Below, one piece after another: positions 2,463-8,610 of a stretch of DNA of 56,240 nucleotides. Location: assembly GCA_964567825.1 (NCBI GenBank), contig CAZMNX010000004.1:1-56240 (forward strand), in the 5' to 3' direction. Below the pieces are notes generated by a model that was not told where the DNA came from, made no database searches, and saw only the letters and a list, made by a program, of their open reading frames with translations. A program made the position numbers and the translations under genes. Numbering within the stretch: position 1 is the stretch's first letter; each line of letters starts with the position of its first letter. Origin of the DNA: an uncultured Candidatus Saccharibacteria bacterium. Lineage in GTDB: Bacteria > Patescibacteriota > Minisyncoccia > Phycocordibacterales > GWA1-40-21.

Positions 2463-2624
2463 TTTAATGATATGAATCTCAACGGGTTCAATTGATGTAT
2501 TAGATATAAAATTCACTACAAAAAGATGAAAGTAAAAGTGGTTTTGTCTTAGAAAAATAAAGGGTTTAAAATCTACTAAATTATGCTACACTATCAAAAT
2601 AGTGTCGTGTATTTATATAAACCT

Positions 2625-3329
2625 ATGGGAAATTTGACTTTGTTTGAACAAGAAATTTTAAAGGTGCTTGAAATGATAGAGTATCGTTGTGAAAGTACCG
2701 AAATACTAGACTCTGAGACAAAGTCTCTTGAGATTTTTTATACTGACAAGAATCGCCCACCCCTAGAGGAAGAACTCACTAAGATGGTTGTTATTGAAAA
2801 ATACCTTAAAAAAAATGGTATAAATTTTAAATTAACACATAATTTTATAGACGAACCAGAACGGTCAGATGGTTTTATAATGCTGGGAATAATTAAAGAT
2901 GAGAATATTAAAAATATTAAATCAAAAGTTTTAAAACTTATCTCCGAATTAAAAATAAAGGATAATAAGAAAAAACTAACACTTAACAAAGCCGGTAGTA
3001 ACCAAGAGATAAAACAACTCGAATTACTAGAAGATAAGACCACAAACAAGGGGGTTACTGTTTATATAAACGTTAAATACGATACACCTAGAAAATTTAG
3101 AAGAGGAAAAAACTGGGGGAAAATGTACGAACTCGCAATGGACCAGCGGGTACCATATAATAAAACTTTTTTTGATTATTTTAATTCGAATAATACAAAC
3201 CCTCTTTATACGAAAGAAGGGTTTAAAGTAACTAAAATCCTAAACAAGGAATATGATTATATTACTCCAAAAATAGAAATAAGAATTATCACACAAAAAG
3301 CTGTTACACAACGGCTTAAGTCTGCTTAA
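2625..3329 (+). CDS. Hypothetical protein, possible element-encoded DNA-binding regulator
   Basis: Long Lys-rich ORF; followed by phased GCTTAAG repeats and a terminator; function inferred only. Confidence 0.6.
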   Translation: MGNLTLFEQEILKVLEMIEYRCESTEILDSETKSLEIFYTDKNRPPLEEELTKMVVIEKYLKKNGINFKLTHNFIDEPERSDGFIMLGIIKDENIKNIKSKVLKLISELKIKDNKKKLTLNKAGSNQEIKQLELLEDKTTNKGVTVYINVKYDTPRKFRRGKNWGKMYELAMDQRVPYNKTFFDYFNSNNTNPLYTKEGFKVTKILNKEYDYITPKIEIRIITQKAVTQRLKSA

Positions 3330-3356: not shown

Positions 3357-3385
3357 ATCCCCCTTTGAAAATAGGGGGATTTTTT
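3357..3385 (+). terminator. Intrinsic terminator
   Basis: ATCCCCCT-8 nt-AGGGGGAT followed by TTTTT. Confidence 0.8.
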
Positions 3386-3936: not shown

Positions 3937-6042
3937 ATGACAGAAATAGAAAAATATTTAACAGAAAAAGGGATTACCTTTTATGGTGGGAATGAGGAGC
4001 TTATTACTAGATGTCTATTTTCAGACTGTGACGCTAATCACAAAGATAAAGACGGTCATCTATATTTTAGTAAAGAAACTTCGCAGTACCATTGTAAAAA
4101 ATGTGATGCCAGCGGTAATTTAAAATCTTTAAAGAAGTTTTTTGGTGATGATAAAGAAGTAAAAACATCAAAAAGCAAATTAAAATTAGAGGAAGTTGAA
4201 AGGTGTCAGAAAGCCTTAACACCAGTTATAACAGATTATTTACACGCCAGAGGGCTTACAGATGAGGTTATAAACTCACACAGGCTTGGCTATGGCTCCT
4301 ATTATGGTAATAGAATGTGGATAACAATACCCGTTAAGGATATAAACGGAAATTATAGCTTTCTAAAGCTTAGGGAGGACCCAGAACAAGGAAGTAAAAA
4401 AATGACGTGGCCAAGTGGTATAGAAGCACAGATATATGATTGGGATAGTTTATTGTTAGCTGAAAATCGTTTAGTAATTTGTGAGGGAGAAATGGATGCC
4501 TTATTATTAAAATCAAAAAATATTCCTTGTATCACAAATACTCATGGTGCAAAAACGGTTAAAGATGACTGGATGTTACACTTTAAAAAGGAAGTCGAAT
4601 ATTTTATCTGTTATGACAATGATAAAGCCGGAAAAGATGGGGCAGTAAAAATGGCAAATGCCTTGCTAAAGCATGGGTGTAATAAGATAAATATTATTAC
4701 CTTACCTGAAGTGGTCGGAGAAAAAGGTGATATTGGAGATTATATTATGAGGTTGAATTTACCAATTGATGACTTGTTTATAAAATATTCTATGCCTTTT
4801 CCAGAAAGAATTGATACATCAAAGTTCAAGGAAATTACCACCACAGAAGTAGCCCAGGTCTTAAATGCCACAATAAAAAAAGATGATGAGAATAAGATAG
4901 TCACCTTCCTATCTATGCTGACAACTTACACCGAAGACTCGCAGATGAATTTGTTCTTTAATGCCCCAAGCTCTACTGGTAAATCACATTTACCGTTATC
5001 AGTTGCTGAAATTTTTCCATTTGAAGATGTGATATCTCTCGCTTATTGCTCGCCGACTGCCTTCTTCCACGACCAAGGTCTTTATAATAAAGACAAAAAT
5101 GAAATTGTTGTAGACCTAGCAAGAAAGATAATCATTTTTACAGATATGCCGGACCAAGCATTAATATCAAGATTACGTCCACTTCTCTCTCATGACCAAA
5201 AGGAATCTAGGTTAAAGATAACTGATAAAGCACAAAGAGGTGGAAATAAGACTAAGAACGTGGTTCTACTTGGCTTCCCGAGTGTATATTTCTGTAGTGC
5301 GGAAATGAGGGTTGATGAACAAGAAAGCACAAGATTCTTAATGCTCAGTCCGTCTATTGAACACGAGAAGATATATCAGGGAGTAAAACAAGCTATACGC
5401 AAAGCCTCGGACAGTGAGAAATTTAACCAAGAGATAGATTCTGACCCCGAAAGGAATCTGCTTAAAAGTAGAATCCGTGCAATAAAACAAGAAAATATTT
5501 CTGATGTAAAAATTGAAGACATAGAATATATTGAAAAATTATTTTTAAAAGATGGAGAAGGGGTAAGGCCAAGACAACAGCGTGATATTAAAAAAGTCAT
5601 TTCAATTATCAAAGGATTAGCCCTATTAAATGTGTGGTTTAGAAAACGTGACGGTAATTATGTTTGGGCGTCAAAAGAGGACATAGATGTAGGCTTTGAT
5701 TTGTGGAATAAATTATCATACGGTCAAGATTATGGATTAGCTCCTTATTTGTTTGAGATATATTCAAAGATAATTATGTATCTTTGGAATCAGACGGACG
5801 AGACCTTTTCTGATTTTTCTAGTGTTACTAAGGATAAGAAAAAATACATAACCAGAAAAGAAATATTGAAGAGACATTTTGAGGTGTATAAAACCCCACT
5901 TGGAATGCAGAAACTAAGACAACAGATTCTTCCGCAGTTAGAGCAAGTTGGTCTTATTATGCAAGAAAGAGGTGGAGATGATATGAGGGAAATGGTTGTA
6001 ATTCCTCTTGAAACAGGAATGGAGGACGAGAATAAGATATAG
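3937..6042 (+). CDS. Primase-helicase (Zn finger + TOPRIM + P-loop NTPase)
   Basis: CLFSDC...HCKKC; ICEGEMD and CYDND TOPRIM motifs; Walker A APSSTGKS. Confidence 0.88.
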   Translation: MTEIEKYLTEKGITFYGGNEELITRCLFSDCDANHKDKDGHLYFSKETSQYHCKKCDASGNLKSLKKFFGDDKEVKTSKSKLKLEEVERCQKALTPVITDYLHARGLTDEVINSHRLGYGSYYGNRMWITIPVKDINGNYSFLKLREDPEQGSKKMTWPSGIEAQIYDWDSLLLAENRLVICEGEMDALLLKSKNIPCITNTHGAKTVKDDWMLHFKKEVEYFICYDNDKAGKDGAVKMANALLKHGCNKINIITLPEVVGEKGDIGDYIMRLNLPIDDLFIKYSMPFPERIDTSKFKEITTTEVAQVLNATIKKDDENKIVTFLSMLTTYTEDSQMNLFFNAPSSTGKSHLPLSVAEIFPFEDVISLAYCSPTAFFHDQGLYNKDKNEIVVDLARKIIIFTDMPDQALISRLRPLLSHDQKESRLKITDKAQRGGNKTKNVVLLGFPSVYFCSAEMRVDEQESTRFLMLSPSIEHEKIYQGVKQAIRKASDSEKFNQEIDSDPERNLLKSRIRAIKQENISDVKIEDIEYIEKLFLKDGEGVRPRQQRDIKKVISIIKGLALLNVWFRKRDGNYVWASKEDIDVGFDLWNKLSYGQDYGLAPYLFEIYSKIIMYLWNQTDETFSDFSSVTKDKKKYITRKEILKRHFEVYKTPLGMQKLRQQILPQLEQVGLIMQERGGDDMREMVVIPLETGMEDENKI

Positions 6043-6070
6043 TGTCAGACCCCCGGGGGTAAAAGATGAG

Positions 6071-6099
6071 TTCACTTTTAAAAGCAAAGATGATATAAT
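6071..6099 (+). promoter_or_regulatory. Sigma70 promoter of the recombinase
   Basis: TTCACT(6071-76)-17 nt-TATAAT(6094-99) with extended TG. Confidence 0.75.
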
Positions 6100-6105
6100 G
6101 TAGAA

Positions 6106-6222
6106 GCTAAACCACGAGATTAATAAAATCCTTATTTTTGTACCCAAAGATGAGGTAATAGTATCTTGTGGTTTAGCGATTACAGGATTTTAACTATTAC
6201 CTCTTCTTTGGAGGCAAAAATA
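6106..6222 (+). ncRNA. Structured 5' leader RNA of the recombinase (interleaved complementary segments covering the SD)
   Basis: 6106-20/6163-77 (15 bp, 1 GU), 6124-32/6184-92 (9 bp), 6144-62/6193-6211 (18/19), 6133-40/6215-22 (8 bp). Confidence 0.65.
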
Positions 6223-6223
6223 T

Positions 6224-7900
6224 ATGGAAAATAAAATTACATGGGCGATATATGTTCGTAAAAGTACAGAATCAAAAGATAGACAAATTCAGTCTATTGA
6301 TGACCAGATAAATTATCTAAAAAATACAGCGGAAAGAGAAGGCCTTAATGTTATCAAAATAATAAAAGAGGCAAAATCAGCAAAGAAAACGGGCCAACGT
6401 GAAGGATTTATTGAACTTTTAAATCTAATTGAGCAAGGAAAGATAAATGGTATTCTCACTTGGAAAATGGACCGGCTATCAAGAAACCCAATAGACAGTG
6501 CCTATATTCAAACATATCTTCAAGATGAGAAATTATTGTGTGTAAAGACTTCAGAAAAAGATTATCTACCAGAGGATAATGCAATTGTAGTTGGTGTTGA
6601 AAGTGGTTCAGCCAATCAATACATTCGTGATTTATCAAAAAATGTTAAGCGAGGTTTAATGTCAAAAGTTGAAAAAGGATGGTTTCCAAATATTCCTCCA
6701 GTCGGATATTTAAACTCTAAAACAAAGGAAAAAGGTAACGAGACGATAATTGTGGATGAAGAAAGGTTTAAAATTGTTAGAAAGATGTGGGACCTAATGC
6801 TCACTGGTACTTACTCTCCCCCACAAGTTCTTAGAATAGCCACAAGCGATTGGGGCTTGCGTACACCTATAAAGCGTAGGCAGGGTGGAAAACCCATCTC
6901 CCAAAGTGAAATATATAATATATTCAGTAATATTTTTTATACCGGATATTTTAATTACAGCGGTAAAACTTACCAAGGTAAGCACGTGCCCATGATAACA
7001 ATTGATGAGTACGACCGGGTACAAGTTATGCTTGGTAAAAAAGGCAAGCCTAAGATGCAAACTCACGTTTTTCCTTTTACTGGAATTATGAAGTGTGAGG
7101 AATGCGGGGCTAGTATCACCGCCTCTAGGAAGACTAAGCTTAATAAAACACTGGGAACAATTGAGACTTACACTTATTATCATTGCACCAAAAGGAGAAA
7201 ATATATTAAGTGTAATTCTAGACCAATCACTGTAGCTGAATTAGAAAAAAATATCACTGAAATTTTTCAAGATAATATGATTGACTCTGAATTTTATAAA
7301 CTAGGCTTGGAAACATTAAAAGGTATGCACAGTCTTGAGGTTGGTAAAAGACAACAAATATATGAAACCCAATTAAGAAATGTAGAGGAGACACAGAAAA
7401 AGCTAGACAGAGCATTAACATATCTCCTAGATGGAACAATTACTCAACCGCAGTATTCTTCACAAAAGAAAGAATTAGAAGAATCTTTGATAAAAGAAAA
7501 AGCTAAACTTAACGAGACTGAAGCTAGGGCAAAGAATTGGACGGAACTTACAGAAAATGTTTTACATTTTTCTTCTCTGGCAACGAAGGCCTTACAGAGC
7601 AATGACACAAAAATTCAAAGAGATATCTTTAACAGCATTGGTTGGAACCACAGGATAAACGCCAAAAAACTCTTTGTAGACCTACATTCTTGGTTCGTTG
7701 TACTTAAAAATGGTGAAAAAGAGCTTCTACCTAAAATTAAAGCGTTGGAACTGGGAAATATCCTTGACCCACAAAGAAAAAAGGAAGCTTTCGCCTCCAT
7801 TCTTCCGACTCTGTGCCGAGACCCAGGTTCGAACTGGGGACCCTTCCCTCTTCAGGGGAATGCTCTACCAACTGAGCTATCTCGGCATCGGTCTATTTAA
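6224..7900 (+). CDS. Large serine recombinase (resolvase + recombinase + Zn-ribbon)
   Basis: YVRKST catalytic Ser, DRLSRN, CEECG...YYHC; GGAGG SD at 6210; C-terminus encoded antisense to tRNA-Phe. Confidence 0.95.
   Translation: MENKITWAIYVRKSTESKDRQIQSIDDQINYLKNTAEREGLNVIKIIKEAKSAKKTGQREGFIELLNLIEQGKINGILTWKMDRLSRNPIDSAYIQTYLQDEKLLCVKTSEKDYLPEDNAIVVGVESGSANQYIRDLSKNVKRGLMSKVEKGWFPNIPPVGYLNSKTKEKGNETIIVDEERFKIVRKMWDLMLTGTYSPPQVLRIATSDWGLRTPIKRRQGGKPISQSEIYNIFSNIFYTGYFNYSGKTYQGKHVPMITIDEYDRVQVMLGKKGKPKMQTHVFPFTGIMKCEECGASITASRKTKLNKTLGTIETYTYYHCTKRRKYIKCNSRPITVAELEKNITEIFQDNMIDSEFYKLGLETLKGMHSLEVGKRQQIYETQLRNVEETQKKLDRALTYLLDGTITQPQYSSQKKELEESLIKEKAKLNETEARAKNWTELTENVLHFSSLATKALQSNDTKIQRDIFNSIGWNHRINAKKLFVDLHSWFVVLKNGEKELLPKIKALELGNILDPQRKKEAFASILPTLCRDPGSNWGPFPLQGNALPTELSRHRSI
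7814..7886 (-). tRNA. tRNA-Phe(GAA)
   Basis: GCCGAGA acceptor, TTCCC-CTGAAGA-GGGAA anticodon arm, GTTCGAAC T-loop. Confidence 0.95.
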
Positions 7901-7933
7901 TCATATTTGGGTAATTTTTTCCAGTATTTTATG

Positions 7934-8005
7934 TGCCCTCGGCAGGAATCGAACCTGCATCTAGGGTTTAGGAAACCCCCATCCTATCCATTGAACGACG
8001 AGAGC
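7934..8005 (-). tRNA. tRNA-Arg(CCT)
   Basis: GCTCTCG/CGAGGGC acceptor, GGGGT-TTCCTAA-ACCCT arm, GTTCGATTC. Confidence 0.95.
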
Positions 8006-8610
8006 TATAGTTTCGACTTCATTAAATCTATCACACTCATAATGATTTTGAAATACTTGGCACCTTTTTTGACCCTAACTCGACACATTCCGTGCTTCAG
8101 TTTTCCTGATTTTTTCCCGTGTAAAATATTCACGCCTCTAATTAAATTGACGGGGATACCGAGCGTTTTCGCCCAAAACGACTTAACTTTCAGGGGACTC
8201 AAATCTTCATAAATTCTTGCGGTAACTAATAAATCTTCAGTCTCAACACCAAGTTTTTTAAGGCAACTTACAAAGATTCTGATCAAATCTGGGTCGCTAT
8301 TTATAAGATTTAGATCGCCTTTACTTCCTTCGGCCCAGTACAAAGAAGCCAAAATTAAGATTTCTGACTGTGGCGATATTCTGCTAATAAGATTACCTGC
8401 CGTGATTTTTGATTTCTCCCAATCTTTTTCGGCCCTTCTAATACTACCAGTTTTTCTCAAATCAAAATCAACTTTAACATTCTTAATATAGCTGTAAATT
8501 GTCGTCTTGCCTCGTGGAACTAATTTACATATACCGTCTAGGCTTAGGCCACTTTTCCTTAATCTAACTATCTCGGCAACTTCCTCCTTGCTAGTTTTTG
8601 GCTTCCCCAT
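8005..8610 (-). CDS. HTH + LAGLIDADG-like endonuclease-family protein
   Basis: N-terminal HTH (IVRLRKSGLSLDGIC...GKTTIY), LASLYWAEGS LAGLIDADG-like helix, NSDP motif; TGTTATAAT 7 nt before ATG. Confidence 0.7.
   Translation of the reverse strand: MGKPKTSKEEVAEIVRLRKSGLSLDGICKLVPRGKTTIYSYIKNVKVDFDLRKTGSIRRAEKDWEKSKITAGNLISRISPQSEILILASLYWAEGSKGDLNLINSDPDLIRIFVSCLKKLGVETEDLLVTARIYEDLSPLKVKSFWAKTLGIPVNLIRGVNILHGKKSGKLKHGMCRVRVKKGAKYFKIIMSVIDLMKSKL

What the first reader, a model, noticed from the sequence alone, without database searches (positions are those of the whole stretch)
6071..6226. Recombinase leader RNA with three mutually crossing helices hiding the Shine-Dalgarno
Seen: a good sigma70 promoter puts +1 near 6106. 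The ~118-nt leader has order A-B-D-C-A'-B'-C'-D': A/A' 15 bp, B/B' 9 bp, C/C' 18 of 19 bp, D/D' 8 bp. DC/C'D' forms a long hairpin enclosing GGAGG (6210-14), and its loop consists of A' and B', the complements of the transcript 5' end. Almost every base has a partner, which is unlikely by chance. Inference: a conformational or kinetic switch, or a pseudoknotted RNA, controlling recombinase translation; it may also act in trans. Loosely reminiscent of P1 C4 / P4 CI antisense logic, but I recognise no family.
Basis: partly seen in the sequence, partly recalled or inferred. Interest (0 to 1): 0.8.

Follow-up and report, generated by a model that had tools for sequence, protein, structure and literature searches.

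The report
Two-state leader RNA before recombinase gene
The 118 bases in front of a mobile element's DNA-integrating enzyme gene encode a conserved, uncatalogued RNA leader that can fold in two competing ways, most likely to limit how much enzyme is made.

Summary
A conserved extended -10 promoter (6091-6099) puts the transcript start on the first base of helix A (6106). Helices A/A', B/B', C/C' and D/D' are present as described. The leader folds far better than shuffles (z -6.8).

I found 12 distinct homologous leaders, all upstream of large serine recombinase genes of Patescibacteria-type genomes and metagenome contigs.
- A:A' and C:C' are kept through many two-sided changes.
- B:B' is supported in 8 of 12.
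- D:D' is not supported beyond U-rich/A-rich composition.
It excludes A:A', so this is a two-state RNA.
- G·U pairs outnumber A·C mismatches 63 to 9, so this is + strand RNA, not a DNA palindrome.

The "hidden Shine-Dalgarno" part is doubtful. The genome shows no SD enrichment, and 16S genes of two congeners lack CCUCC. What the long hairpin buries is the A-rich start region and the AUG.

Best reading: a cis-acting bistable or kinetic leader that gates recombinase expression. An attenuator reading remains open. There is no Rfam match and I found no paper on it; it is a new RNA family of a known regulatory kind.

The parts
6071..6099 (+). Promoter: weak -35 (6071-6076), TG-extended -10 (TG 6091-6092, TATAAT 6094-6099)
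   Evidence: 10 of 12 consensus matches, TG present. A -10 box with 5-6 of 6 matches ends exactly 6 nt before helix A in 12 of 12 homologues, and TGn is present in 11 of 12.
6106..6120 (+). Helix strand A, the predicted 5' terminus of the transcript; pairs with A'
   Evidence: On alignment A4, 15 pairs are 95.5% paired and 9 show changes on both sides.
6124..6132 (+). Helix strand B; pairs with B'. In the long-hairpin fold its 3' end (6129-6131) instead pairs with 6226-6228, the G of the AUG plus 2 nt.
   Evidence: repeat I8, 9 of 9. Duplex against 300 shuffles gives p<=0.023 in 8 of 12 sequences. MFE.
6133..6141 (+). U-rich strand D. It pairs with D' in the long hairpin, or (as 6130-6140) with the 5' half of C (6145-6155) in the A:A' fold.
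   Evidence: D:D' is not significant in relatives.
6144..6162 (+). Helix strand C (A-tract plus a G-rich core); pairs with C'
   Evidence: 19 pairs, 96.5% paired, 12 with changes on both sides.
6163..6177 (+). Strand A', the contested segment. It pairs either with A (15 bp) or, through 6163-6173, with A* (6178-6188).
6178..6188 (+). Strand A*, a G.U-rich mimic of A; forms the apex of the long hairpin with A' and overlaps B'
   Evidence: 11 pairs, 93% paired across 12 sequences, 5 with changes on both sides; slid controls give 35-60%.
6184..6192 (+). Strand B'
6193..6211 (+). Strand C': a C-rich core followed by a U-rich run (6204-6209)
   Evidence: A U-rich run after the G/C core is present in all 12 sequences (sequences).
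6210..6214 (+). GGAGG, SD-like but probably not a working Shine-Dalgarno in this host
6214..6222 (+). A-rich strand D', directly before the start codon
6224..7900 (+). Large serine recombinase gene (558 aa)
   Evidence: Pfam Resolvase, Recombinase and Zn_ribbon_recom. PHROG integrase, E 3.5e-74.

Best explanation
The region encodes the 118-nt 5' leader of the recombinase mRNA, transcribed from its own extended -10 promoter so that the RNA begins exactly with helix strand A. The leader has two competing folds.

Fold 1 forms first during synthesis. The 5'-terminal strand A pairs with A' (15 bp). B can pair with B', and the U-rich D holds the 5' half of C. The A-rich stretch and the AUG stay open, and the 5' end is base-paired.

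Fold 2 becomes the more stable fold once C', D' and the start codon are transcribed. A' switches to the weaker partner A*, and C pairs with C'. The helix then extends through D:D' to the AUG, giving one hairpin of about 45 bp that buries the start region and leaves A-B as a single-stranded 5' tail.

My reading is that each transcript is translatable for a short time and then closes, or that transcripts partition between the two states, keeping recombinase output low.

Shown: the helices, their conservation and covariation, the mutual exclusivity of A:A' and A':A*, and the promoter register.
Inferred: that the output is translation initiation and/or mRNA stability, which fold is ON, and the kinetic order.
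For: (1) Twelve distinct homologous leaders, all upstream of serine recombinase genes.
(2) Covariation on A4. A:A' is 95.5% paired with 9 of 15 pairs changed on both sides. C:C' is 96.5% paired with 12 of 19. For the submitted structure (A:A', C:C' and a mis-registered D:D' together) 0 of 500 shuffles reach the observed paired fraction or covariation score, and slid controls give 41-52% paired.
(3) The alternative helix A':A* is 93% paired with 5 of 11 pairs changed on both sides. At one position A, A' and A* change together in L048 (sequences).
(4) B:B' beats shuffles at p<=0.023 in 8 of 12, using at least six different sequences.
(5) G.U outnumbers A.C 63 to 9 in these helices. The covariance model scores 140 bits on the + strand and 48 on the - strand.
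(6) The -10 box ends 6 nt before A in 12 of 12.
(7) Growing-chain MFE: the A:A' fold is optimal until C' emerges and the long hairpin afterwards, in 12 of 12.
(8) In the window the two folds differ by only 5 kcal/mol before counting B:B' (-45.9 against -40.9).
(9) Enforcing A:A' raises the mean unpaired probability of -13..+3 in 10 of 11 sequences. A nested model forbids C:C' in that state, so this is an upper bound.
Against: - There are no expression data; no RNA run holds this sequence.
- Burying the start region cannot be universal. L123 has about 86 nt between the leader and the recombinase ATG, L051 has a 14-nt insert that leaves its start open in both folds, and L119 shows no gain.
- D:D' is not supported beyond composition: p<=0.053 in only 2 of 12.
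- A:A' (-22.1 kcal/mol) is much stronger than A':A* (-9.6). A:A' and C:C' could coexist as an H-type pseudoknot with loops of 23 and 15 nt, so the start region might be partly hidden in both states. The pseudoknot-free programs used here cannot weigh this.
- The A-on-5'-side, U-on-3'-side orientation of the C:C' tract never flips, which suggests a sequence-specific role for the U run (see the first rival).
- The 12 sequences are related, so shuffle controls overstate significance.
Confidence: 0.5

Rival explanations
1. Transcription attenuator. The long hairpin (apex plus the G/C-rich C:C' core) followed directly by the U run is an intrinsic terminator. It would end most transcripts near 6209 as a small RNA of about 105 nt. 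The 5' strand A (with D holding C) would be the anti-terminator that lets some polymerases read into the recombinase gene.
For: - A G/C-rich 4-bp clamp followed by a U-rich run is present in all 12 leaders in an approximately 31% G+C context (sequences). This includes the five sequences where start-codon occlusion is unlikely.
- In the A/U tract of C:C' the 3' side stays U even opposite G (5 G.U against 2 G-C cells), and the orientation never flips.
- This genome does use classical G/C-stem plus U-run terminators, for example at 3357-3385.
Against: - The simple terminator scan finds none here, and the window's own U run is interrupted (UUCUUU).
- A does not compete for the stem strands next to the U run, so A:A' need not prevent closure of the C:C' core.
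- In 8 of 12 sequences the A:A' fold is still the MFE when the C' core has just emerged, so own-promoter transcripts would mostly read through.
- The pairing continues past the U run to the AUG in the window and in several relatives.
Confidence: 0.2
2. A static pseudoknotted three-way junction, not a switch. A:A', B:B' and the C:C' core meet at one junction: the strands A-B, B'-C' and C-A' are joined by 3, 0 and 0 nt. This compact fold would be a binding platform for a protein such as the recombinase or another element protein (autoregulation), or a 5' stabiliser of the mRNA.
For: - The junction linkers are short in most sequences: C to A' is 0-3 nt in 12 of 12, and B' to C' is 0-2 nt (read).
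- All three helices covary.
- The transcript starts flush with helix A, as 5'-terminal protective stem-loops do (recalled knowledge).
Against: - It does not explain why A* covaries with A'.
- The 11-nt D linker would have to span the B helix plus the full C helix, which looks too far by my geometric estimate (not computed by a tool).
- There are no conserved unpaired nucleotides that would mark a protein or ligand pocket.
Confidence: 0.12
3. A trans-acting immunity-like RNA, the first reader's P1 c4 / P4 CI analogy. The hairpin would be released and pair with A-B on other transcripts.
For: - The order A-B ... A'-B' resembles the a/b ... a'/b' layout of the P1 c4 system (recalled).
- The long hairpin would be a stable RNA species.
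Against: - No second copy of A, A', C or A-B (2 to 5 mismatches allowed) exists anywhere else in the 20 contigs, and one search gives only self matches.
- No match to any Rfam family at E up to 10, so none to c4 or isrK.
- The cis partner is always made first and is tethered.
- A' is paired, not displayed in a loop, in the long hairpin.
Confidence: 0.06
4. A DNA-level element: a recombinase or repressor operator, an attP-like site, or a cruciform made of inverted repeats.
For: - In the window the 9-mer at the 5' end of C (6146-6154) recurs at 6062-6070, a one-mismatch copy lies at 6086-6094, and its imperfect complement lies in C'. The promoter (6076-6099) is 75% identical to 6136-6159.
Against: - G.U outnumbers A.C 63 to 9, and the apex helix alone has 38 G.U. 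Such helices are not palindromes in DNA.
- The helix boundary coincides with the transcript start in 12 of 12.
- By eye, the promoter/C similarity is absent in L035 and only generic in the relatives I looked at.
- There is no similarity to the att-side region 7701-8050 beyond chance.
- The element is integrated, so an intact attP is not expected here.
Confidence: 0.03

Closest known systems
Kinetically controlled leaders that mask a start site: the maturation-protein gene of phage MS2 and hok mRNA of plasmid R1 (recalled; papers not read here)
   Same: A 5' leader whose equilibrium fold buries the translation start. An early, metastable fold involving the 5' end leaves the start open for a short time. 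The purpose is to keep output of a potentially harmful protein low.
   Different: - The sequence and architecture are unrelated.
- Here the contested strand A' has two covarying partners, and a third helix (B:B') crosses both.
- The host apparently lacks SD-dependent initiation.
- The gene is a serine recombinase.
- Kinetics are inferred only from growing-chain MFEs.
tisB mRNA of E. coli: sequestered start site, 5' single-stranded standby site and a 5' pseudoknot (PMC7708055; search listing and start of abstract only)
   Same: A highly structured leader with a buried start site, a functional single-stranded 5' segment about 100 nt upstream, and a pseudoknot near the 5' end.
   Different: - tisB needs processing and is countered by an sRNA; neither is seen here.
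- There is no sequence similarity.
- The role of the free A-B tail here is unknown.
Terminator/anti-terminator leaders (attenuators and riboswitch expression platforms; recalled)
   Same: Two mutually exclusive helices share one strand, and a G/C-rich stem is followed by a U run.
   Different: - The competing 5' strand targets the top of the hairpin, not the strand next to the U run.
- There is no conserved unpaired pocket for a ligand.
- No leader peptide is conserved: the TTG in A' is followed by a stop in L045 and is absent in L048.
P1/P7 c4 antisense RNA (Rfam C4) and P4 CI RNA / isrK (recalled)
   Same: Two short blocks upstream are complementary, in the same order, to two blocks inside a structured RNA of the same transcript, in a mobile element.
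   Different: - No Rfam match.
- No downstream second target set and no trans target in the genome.
- Here the complementary blocks are themselves paired within a hairpin stem.
A second leader type ('type II') before related recombinase genes in the same group of elements, seen here in L004, L038, L040, L042, L053, L060 and L062
   Same: - Same gene and same promoter register, with the RNA starting flush with a 5'-terminal helix.
- An A-tract/G-rich segment C pairs with a C-rich/U-rich segment C' just before the ATG, and this pairing crosses the 5'-terminal helix.
   Different: Type II is one long 5' hairpin whose apical loop is C (order A-B-X-C-X'-B'-A'-C'). It has no A* mimic and no D/D'. 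The covariance model of type I scores type II at only 25-33 bits.

Membership tests
Any Rfam 15 family (including C4 antisense RNA and isrK/P4 CI-like) | Match to the family covariance model at or above its gathering score | tested here: not met
   permissive E-value mode on 5500-7000. The best matches are miRNA-precursor models (27 bits against gathering scores of 53-84), which reflect only the long hairpin.
Intrinsic terminator / attenuator | A G/C-rich stem directly followed by a U run | tested here: inconclusive
   The G/C clamp plus U-rich run is present in 12 of 12. The simple scan finds none, and the window's run is interrupted.
Intrinsic terminator / attenuator | The alternative (anti-terminator) helix competes for a strand of the terminator stem | tested here: met
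   A competes with A* for A', the upper 5' strand of the hairpin. Both helices covary.
Intrinsic terminator / attenuator | Transcripts end at the U run | not testable with these tools
   No RNA run holds the sequence.
Start-site-masking leader with kinetic control (MS2 / hok type) | The equilibrium fold pairs the start region | tested here: met
   In the window's MFE, 6214-6222 and 6226-6228 are paired. Mean unpaired probability of -13..+3 is 0.30 in the window. It is 0.18-0.44 in 9 of 11 sequences; the other two are 0.55 and 0.75.
Start-site-masking leader with kinetic control (MS2 / hok type) | An earlier-forming alternative fold leaves the start open | tested here: inconclusive
   Growing-chain MFEs show the A:A' fold first in 12 of 12. 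These are equilibrium calculations without pseudoknots, not kinetics.
SD-sequestering leader | The host uses Shine-Dalgarno pairing, and the paired motif is a functional SD at working distance from the AUG | tested here: not met
   SD-like 4-mers occur in 33 of 437 ORFs at -20..-4, against 38, 44 and 54 of 437 in control windows. Two same-genus 16S genes lack CCUCC; the genome's own 16S is not assembled. The motif is absent or misplaced in 5 of 12 relatives.
attP / recombinase binding site of a large serine recombinase | An imperfect DNA palindrome of about 40-50 bp resembling the element's other att sites, located at the element boundary in the integrated state | tested here: not met
   The region lies inside the element, between the primase-like gene and the recombinase gene. 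It shows no similarity to the tRNA-Phe-side junction region. G.U-rich helices are not palindromic as DNA.
Upstream ORF / leader peptide control | A conserved short ORF in the leader | tested here: not met
   The window has a 22-codon TTG frame (6166-6234). In L045 the TTG is followed by TAG, L048 has no TTG, and the frame relative to the ATG differs in L033 (read).

The most novel reading that the evidence does not exclude
The leader is a new class of pseudoknotted three-way-junction RNA switch in which integrity of the mRNA's own 5' end is the signal. While the triphosphorylated 5' strand A is intact, it holds A' and keeps the start region open. Once the 5' end is attacked or captured (by a 5'-dependent RNase, or by a factor made after integration or excision), A* takes over and the mRNA locks irreversibly into a silent hairpin. 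Together with the type II leaders, this would be a general 'one-shot' expression timer for recombinases of mobile elements in bacteria that lack Shine-Dalgarno initiation.
Probability: 0.12. Interest if true: 0.8.

Novelty: new variant of a known kind. Interest (0 to 1): 0.62.

Why it matters
- Large serine recombinases decide when a mobile element enters or leaves a chromosome. How their synthesis is controlled is poorly known, and nothing is described for Patescibacteria, which cannot yet be grown alone.
- This is a compact, well-conserved RNA with clear compensatory changes for two mutually exclusive helices. It offers a directly testable model of RNA-based control in a host that seems to initiate translation without Shine-Dalgarno pairing.
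- A second, differently wired leader (type II) sits before sister recombinase genes. That suggests strong and repeated selection for this kind of control.
- Practically, the leader is a marker for these elements, and it matters for anyone who wants to express these recombinases as genome-engineering tools.

Tried and rejected
- Rfam: no family.
- Phage collection, blastn of 5900-6400: no match.
- Viral contigs, protein patterns: no relative. A 19-nt A'-linker pattern gave one hit, inside a long open reading frame with no leader features around it, so chance.
- Class-level sample with the covariance model: the window's own genome only, 1 of 151.
- Sequencing runs: no RNA holder listed.
- Contigs of four DNA runs laid on 5900-6500: no variant inside the leader.
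- uORF or leader-peptide idea: rejected, the frame is not conserved.
- Second promoter inside D-C (TAATAG as a -10): rejected by eye, because the last base is G and the spacing to any -35 is poor.
- Ribozyme or ligand riboswitch: rejected, because almost no conserved unpaired nucleotides exist.
- tRNA mimicry or T-box idea (ACCA in A, UGGU in A'): rejected, not conserved in L045 or L048.
- Leader/att similarity: none beyond chance.
- A partial second copy of tRNA-Phe that would mark the other element end: only D-arm matches to other tRNAs. The contig starts inside the element.
- Promoter/C direct repeat as operator sites: by eye, absent in L035 and only generic in the relatives looked at.
- Literature: three full-text searches found nothing on such a leader. 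Supplementary files could not be consulted.
- No pseudoknot-capable folding program and no R-scape were available.
Full report
**Context**

The window is contig 4 of a 710-kb, 92.65%-complete genome. Relatives found by protein search are uncultured bacteria, one labelled Candidatus Nomurabacteria, that is Patescibacteria / CPR.

The flagged stretch is the 181-nt gap between a primase-like gene and a large serine recombinase gene.
- Primase-like gene: 3937-6042, Toprim_2 and PHROG DNA primase.
- Recombinase gene: 6224-7900, with Resolvase, Recombinase and Zn_ribbon_recom domains and PHROG integrase at E 3.5e-74.
- Upstream genes: zinc-ribbon membrane-type proteins, a trypsin-like peptidase and small unknown proteins.
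- Downstream: tRNA-Phe, tRNA-Arg and lepA.

The recombinase therefore sits at the right end of an integrated mobile element.

**Checking the observation**

- Promoter: TTCACT-17-TATAAT with a TG extension, 6071-6099.
- A/A': 15 bp, one G.U.
- B/B': 9 bp.
- C/C': 18 of 19.
- D/D': 9 bp.
- GGAGG at 6210-6214; ATG at 6224.

The RNA from 6100 to 6240 folds at -45.9 kcal/mol against -21.7 +/- 3.6 for shuffles (z -6.76).

The MFE is not a hairpin with an open A'B' loop. A' (6163-6173) pairs with the next segment (6178-6188, here called A*) through 11 pairs, four of them G.U. The result is one long hairpin running from about 6129 to 6228.

**Relatives**

Protein searches gave recombinase relatives in three collections:
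- 51 of 61 related genomes;
- 4 loci from the species-genome collection;
- 120 metagenome stretches, of which 80 were kept.

I read the upstream regions of 26 of the metagenome loci, L037-L062.
- 8 of 26 carry the window's leader ("type I"). These are 6 distinct sequences; one of them, L044, is identical to the genome-collection locus L035.
- 7 of 26 carry a differently wired leader ("type II").
- 11 of 26 have neither.

I built a covariance model from 8 type I sequences and searched with it.
- It found type I leaders in 4 of 53 genomes of the family, 3 of 151 of the order and 1 of 151 (own genome only) of a class-level sample.
- This added four divergent members. For L119 and L120 the recombinases are 37-38% identical to the window's. 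The genes behind L123 and L124 were identified only by their N-terminal sequence.
- Over 99 held loci, no further type I member appeared.

In total there are 12 distinct leaders. All lie upstream of serine recombinase genes, and 121-131 nt were extracted from A to the first ATG after C'. In L123 that ATG is not the gene's start, which lies about 86 nt beyond C'.

**Covariation**

All counts are on alignment A4.
- A:A' is 95.5% paired, with 9 of 15 pairs changed on both sides.
- C:C' is 96.5% paired, with 12 of 19 changed on both sides.
- For the whole submitted structure (A:A', C:C' and a mis-registered D:D' together), 0 of 500 shuffles reach the observed paired fraction or covariation score. 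Sliding the partner by 1-3 columns drops pairing to 41-52%.
- A':A* is 93% paired in all 12, with 5 of 11 pairs changed on both sides. Slid controls give 35-60%.
- B:B' had to be scored per sequence. The best duplex between the A-to-C interval and the A'-to-C' interval beats 300 shuffles at p<=0.023 in 8 of 12. It is weak in L035 (0.09), L045 (0.08) and L124 (0.18) and absent in L119. At least six different B sequences are used.
- D:D' is no better than U-rich/A-rich composition predicts: p<=0.053 in only 2 of 12.
- In helices A, C and the apex, G.U cells number 63 and A.C cells 9.
- The model scores 140 bits on the + strand and 48 on the - strand.

These are RNA helices on the + strand, not DNA palindromes. 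The sequences are related, so these controls overstate independence. No phylogeny-aware test was available.

**Transcript start**

In 12 of 12 leaders a -10 box with 5-6 of 6 matches ends exactly 6 nt before the first G of A. In 11 of 12 it carries the TGn extension, and -35 boxes are weak. The RNA therefore most likely begins flush with helix A. The type II leaders show the same register (by eye).

**Two states**

A' cannot pair with A and A* at once, yet both helices covary.

In the window the duplex energies are:
- A:A' -22.1 kcal/mol
- A':A* -9.6
- B:B' -7.8
- C:C' -25.2
- D:D' -5.5

The best nested fold with A:A' enforced is -40.9 kcal/mol. It contains a D:C-5' hairpin (6130-6140 with 6145-6155). 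The long hairpin is -45.9. Across the 12 sequences this gap ranges from 3 to 19 kcal/mol before any credit for B:B'.

MFEs of growing chains show the A:A' fold as optimal from completion of A' until C' has emerged, and the long hairpin afterwards, in 12 of 12.

Enforcing A:A' raises the mean unpaired probability of positions -13 to +3 in 10 of 11 sequences, for example from 0.30 to 0.59 in the window. A nested model forbids C:C' in that state, so this is an upper bound.

A geometric argument of mine, not a computation, bears on which helices can coexist.
- A:A' plus C:C' could coexist as an H-type pseudoknot with loops of 23 and 15 nt.
- A:A', B:B' and the C:C' core meet at one junction with linkers of 3, 0 and 0 nt.
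- B:B' together with the full C:C' and D:D' looks sterically impossible, because B runs straight into D.

**The Shine-Dalgarno question**

- SD-like 4-mers occur at -20..-4 in 33 of 437 long ORFs of this genome. Control windows give 38, 44 and 54 of 437.
- The genome's own 16S gene is not assembled.
- Only 2 of 15 same-genus genomes have a 16S gene assembled. In both, the gene continues after helix 45 without any CCUCC.
- Among the 12 leaders, four have no SD-like motif, L051 has it 20 nt from the AUG, and L123 has about 86 nt between leader and ATG.

GGAGG at 6210-6214 is therefore probably not a working SD. Its two first G's pair with the CC at the base of C. What the long hairpin buries is the A-rich stretch and the AUG, which is what matters for SD-independent initiation (established knowledge, recalled).

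**Mechanism**

I favour a cis-acting bistable or kinetic leader (confidence 0.5). Early folding through the 5'-terminal strand A keeps the start open. The complete transcript then relaxes, or partitions, into the long hairpin, which is silent and exposes a 27-nt 5' tail. That limits recombinase synthesis.

The main rival is attenuation (0.2). Every one of the 12 leaders has a G/C clamp followed by a U-rich run, with a never-flipped A/U orientation. However, A does not compete for the strands next to the U run, and the A:A' fold is still optimal when the C' core emerges in 8 of 12.

The remaining readings are less likely.
- A static pseudoknotted junction (0.12) does not explain the covariation of A*.
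- A trans-acting RNA (0.06) has no target in the assembly.
- A DNA-level element (0.03) is contradicted by the G.U asymmetry.

**Comparison with known systems and novelty**

- No Rfam family matches.
- Three full-text searches found no paper on a structured leader of serine recombinase genes or on such RNAs in CPR bacteria.
- The logic is closest to the MS2 maturation gene and hok mRNA (recalled), and to tisB, for which I saw only the search listing and start of the abstract (PMC7708055).
- Earlier notes of this scan describe similar two-state or pseudoknotted leaders before Patescibacteria serine recombinase genes in other genomes. They agree in kind, but I could not see their sequences, so they are not independent support.

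I rate this a new RNA family and a new variant of a known regulatory kind.

Noticed in passing
window 7813-7900 (with 6224-7900): The complete tRNA-Phe gene (7813-7886, minus strand) lies inside the last 88 nt of the recombinase ORF. Recombinase residues about 529-556 are therefore encoded antisense to the tRNA. tBLASTn 'hits' to these residues in about 40 other genomes are simply their tRNA-Phe genes. Close homologues diverge from the window's protein at about residue 531-538. This suggests that the element integrates at tRNA-Phe and that the recombinase C-terminus is read across the junction.
   Followed up: partly
L004, L038, L040, L042, L053, L060, L062 (upstream of the recombinase start): A second leader architecture ('type II') sits before recombinases 43-77% identical to the window's. 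It is a long 5'-terminal hairpin (A-B-X) whose apical loop C forms an 11-21 bp helix with C', directly before the ATG, in 7 of 7. C and C' resemble those of type I (A-tract plus G-rich; C-rich plus U-rich). The -10 box is again about 6 nt before the first paired base.
   Followed up: partly
window 6036-6066 and the same place in L033, L038, L041, L042, L045, L048, L052, L053: A conserved G-rich DNA motif (TATAGTGT, 2-4 nt, GGGGGTRTRGGGTAAA) lies at or just after the stop codon of the primase-like gene, 40-60 nt before the recombinase promoter. It is shared by loci with type I, type II and no leader. In the window it is altered to a C5G5 palindrome. Its function is unknown; a regulator site, an origin or an RNA 3' element are possibilities.
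   Followed up: no
whole genome G000; L129, L130: This genome shows no enrichment of Shine-Dalgarno-like motifs before long ORFs (33 of 437, against 38-54 of 437 in control windows). 16S genes of two same-genus genomes lack the CCUCC tail. This lineage probably initiates translation without SD pairing.
   Followed up: partly
window 3357-3385: A classical intrinsic terminator (G/C stem plus U run) follows the 248-aa ORF 2583-3329. It separates the cargo genes from the operon of small genes, primase and recombinase.
   Followed up: no
window 6062-6099 versus 6136-6159: In the window only, the promoter region is a 75% direct repeat of the D-C segment, and the 9-mer at 6146-6154 recurs at 6062-6070. 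By eye this is absent in L035 and only generic in the relatives I looked at, so it is probably chance or recent duplication.
   Followed up: partly
window 8005-8610 (minus strand): A 201-aa ORF next to tRNA-Arg has a weak match (E 5.8e-4) to the C-terminal part of a DNA-invertase PHROG. It may be a remnant of another recombinase.
   Followed up: no
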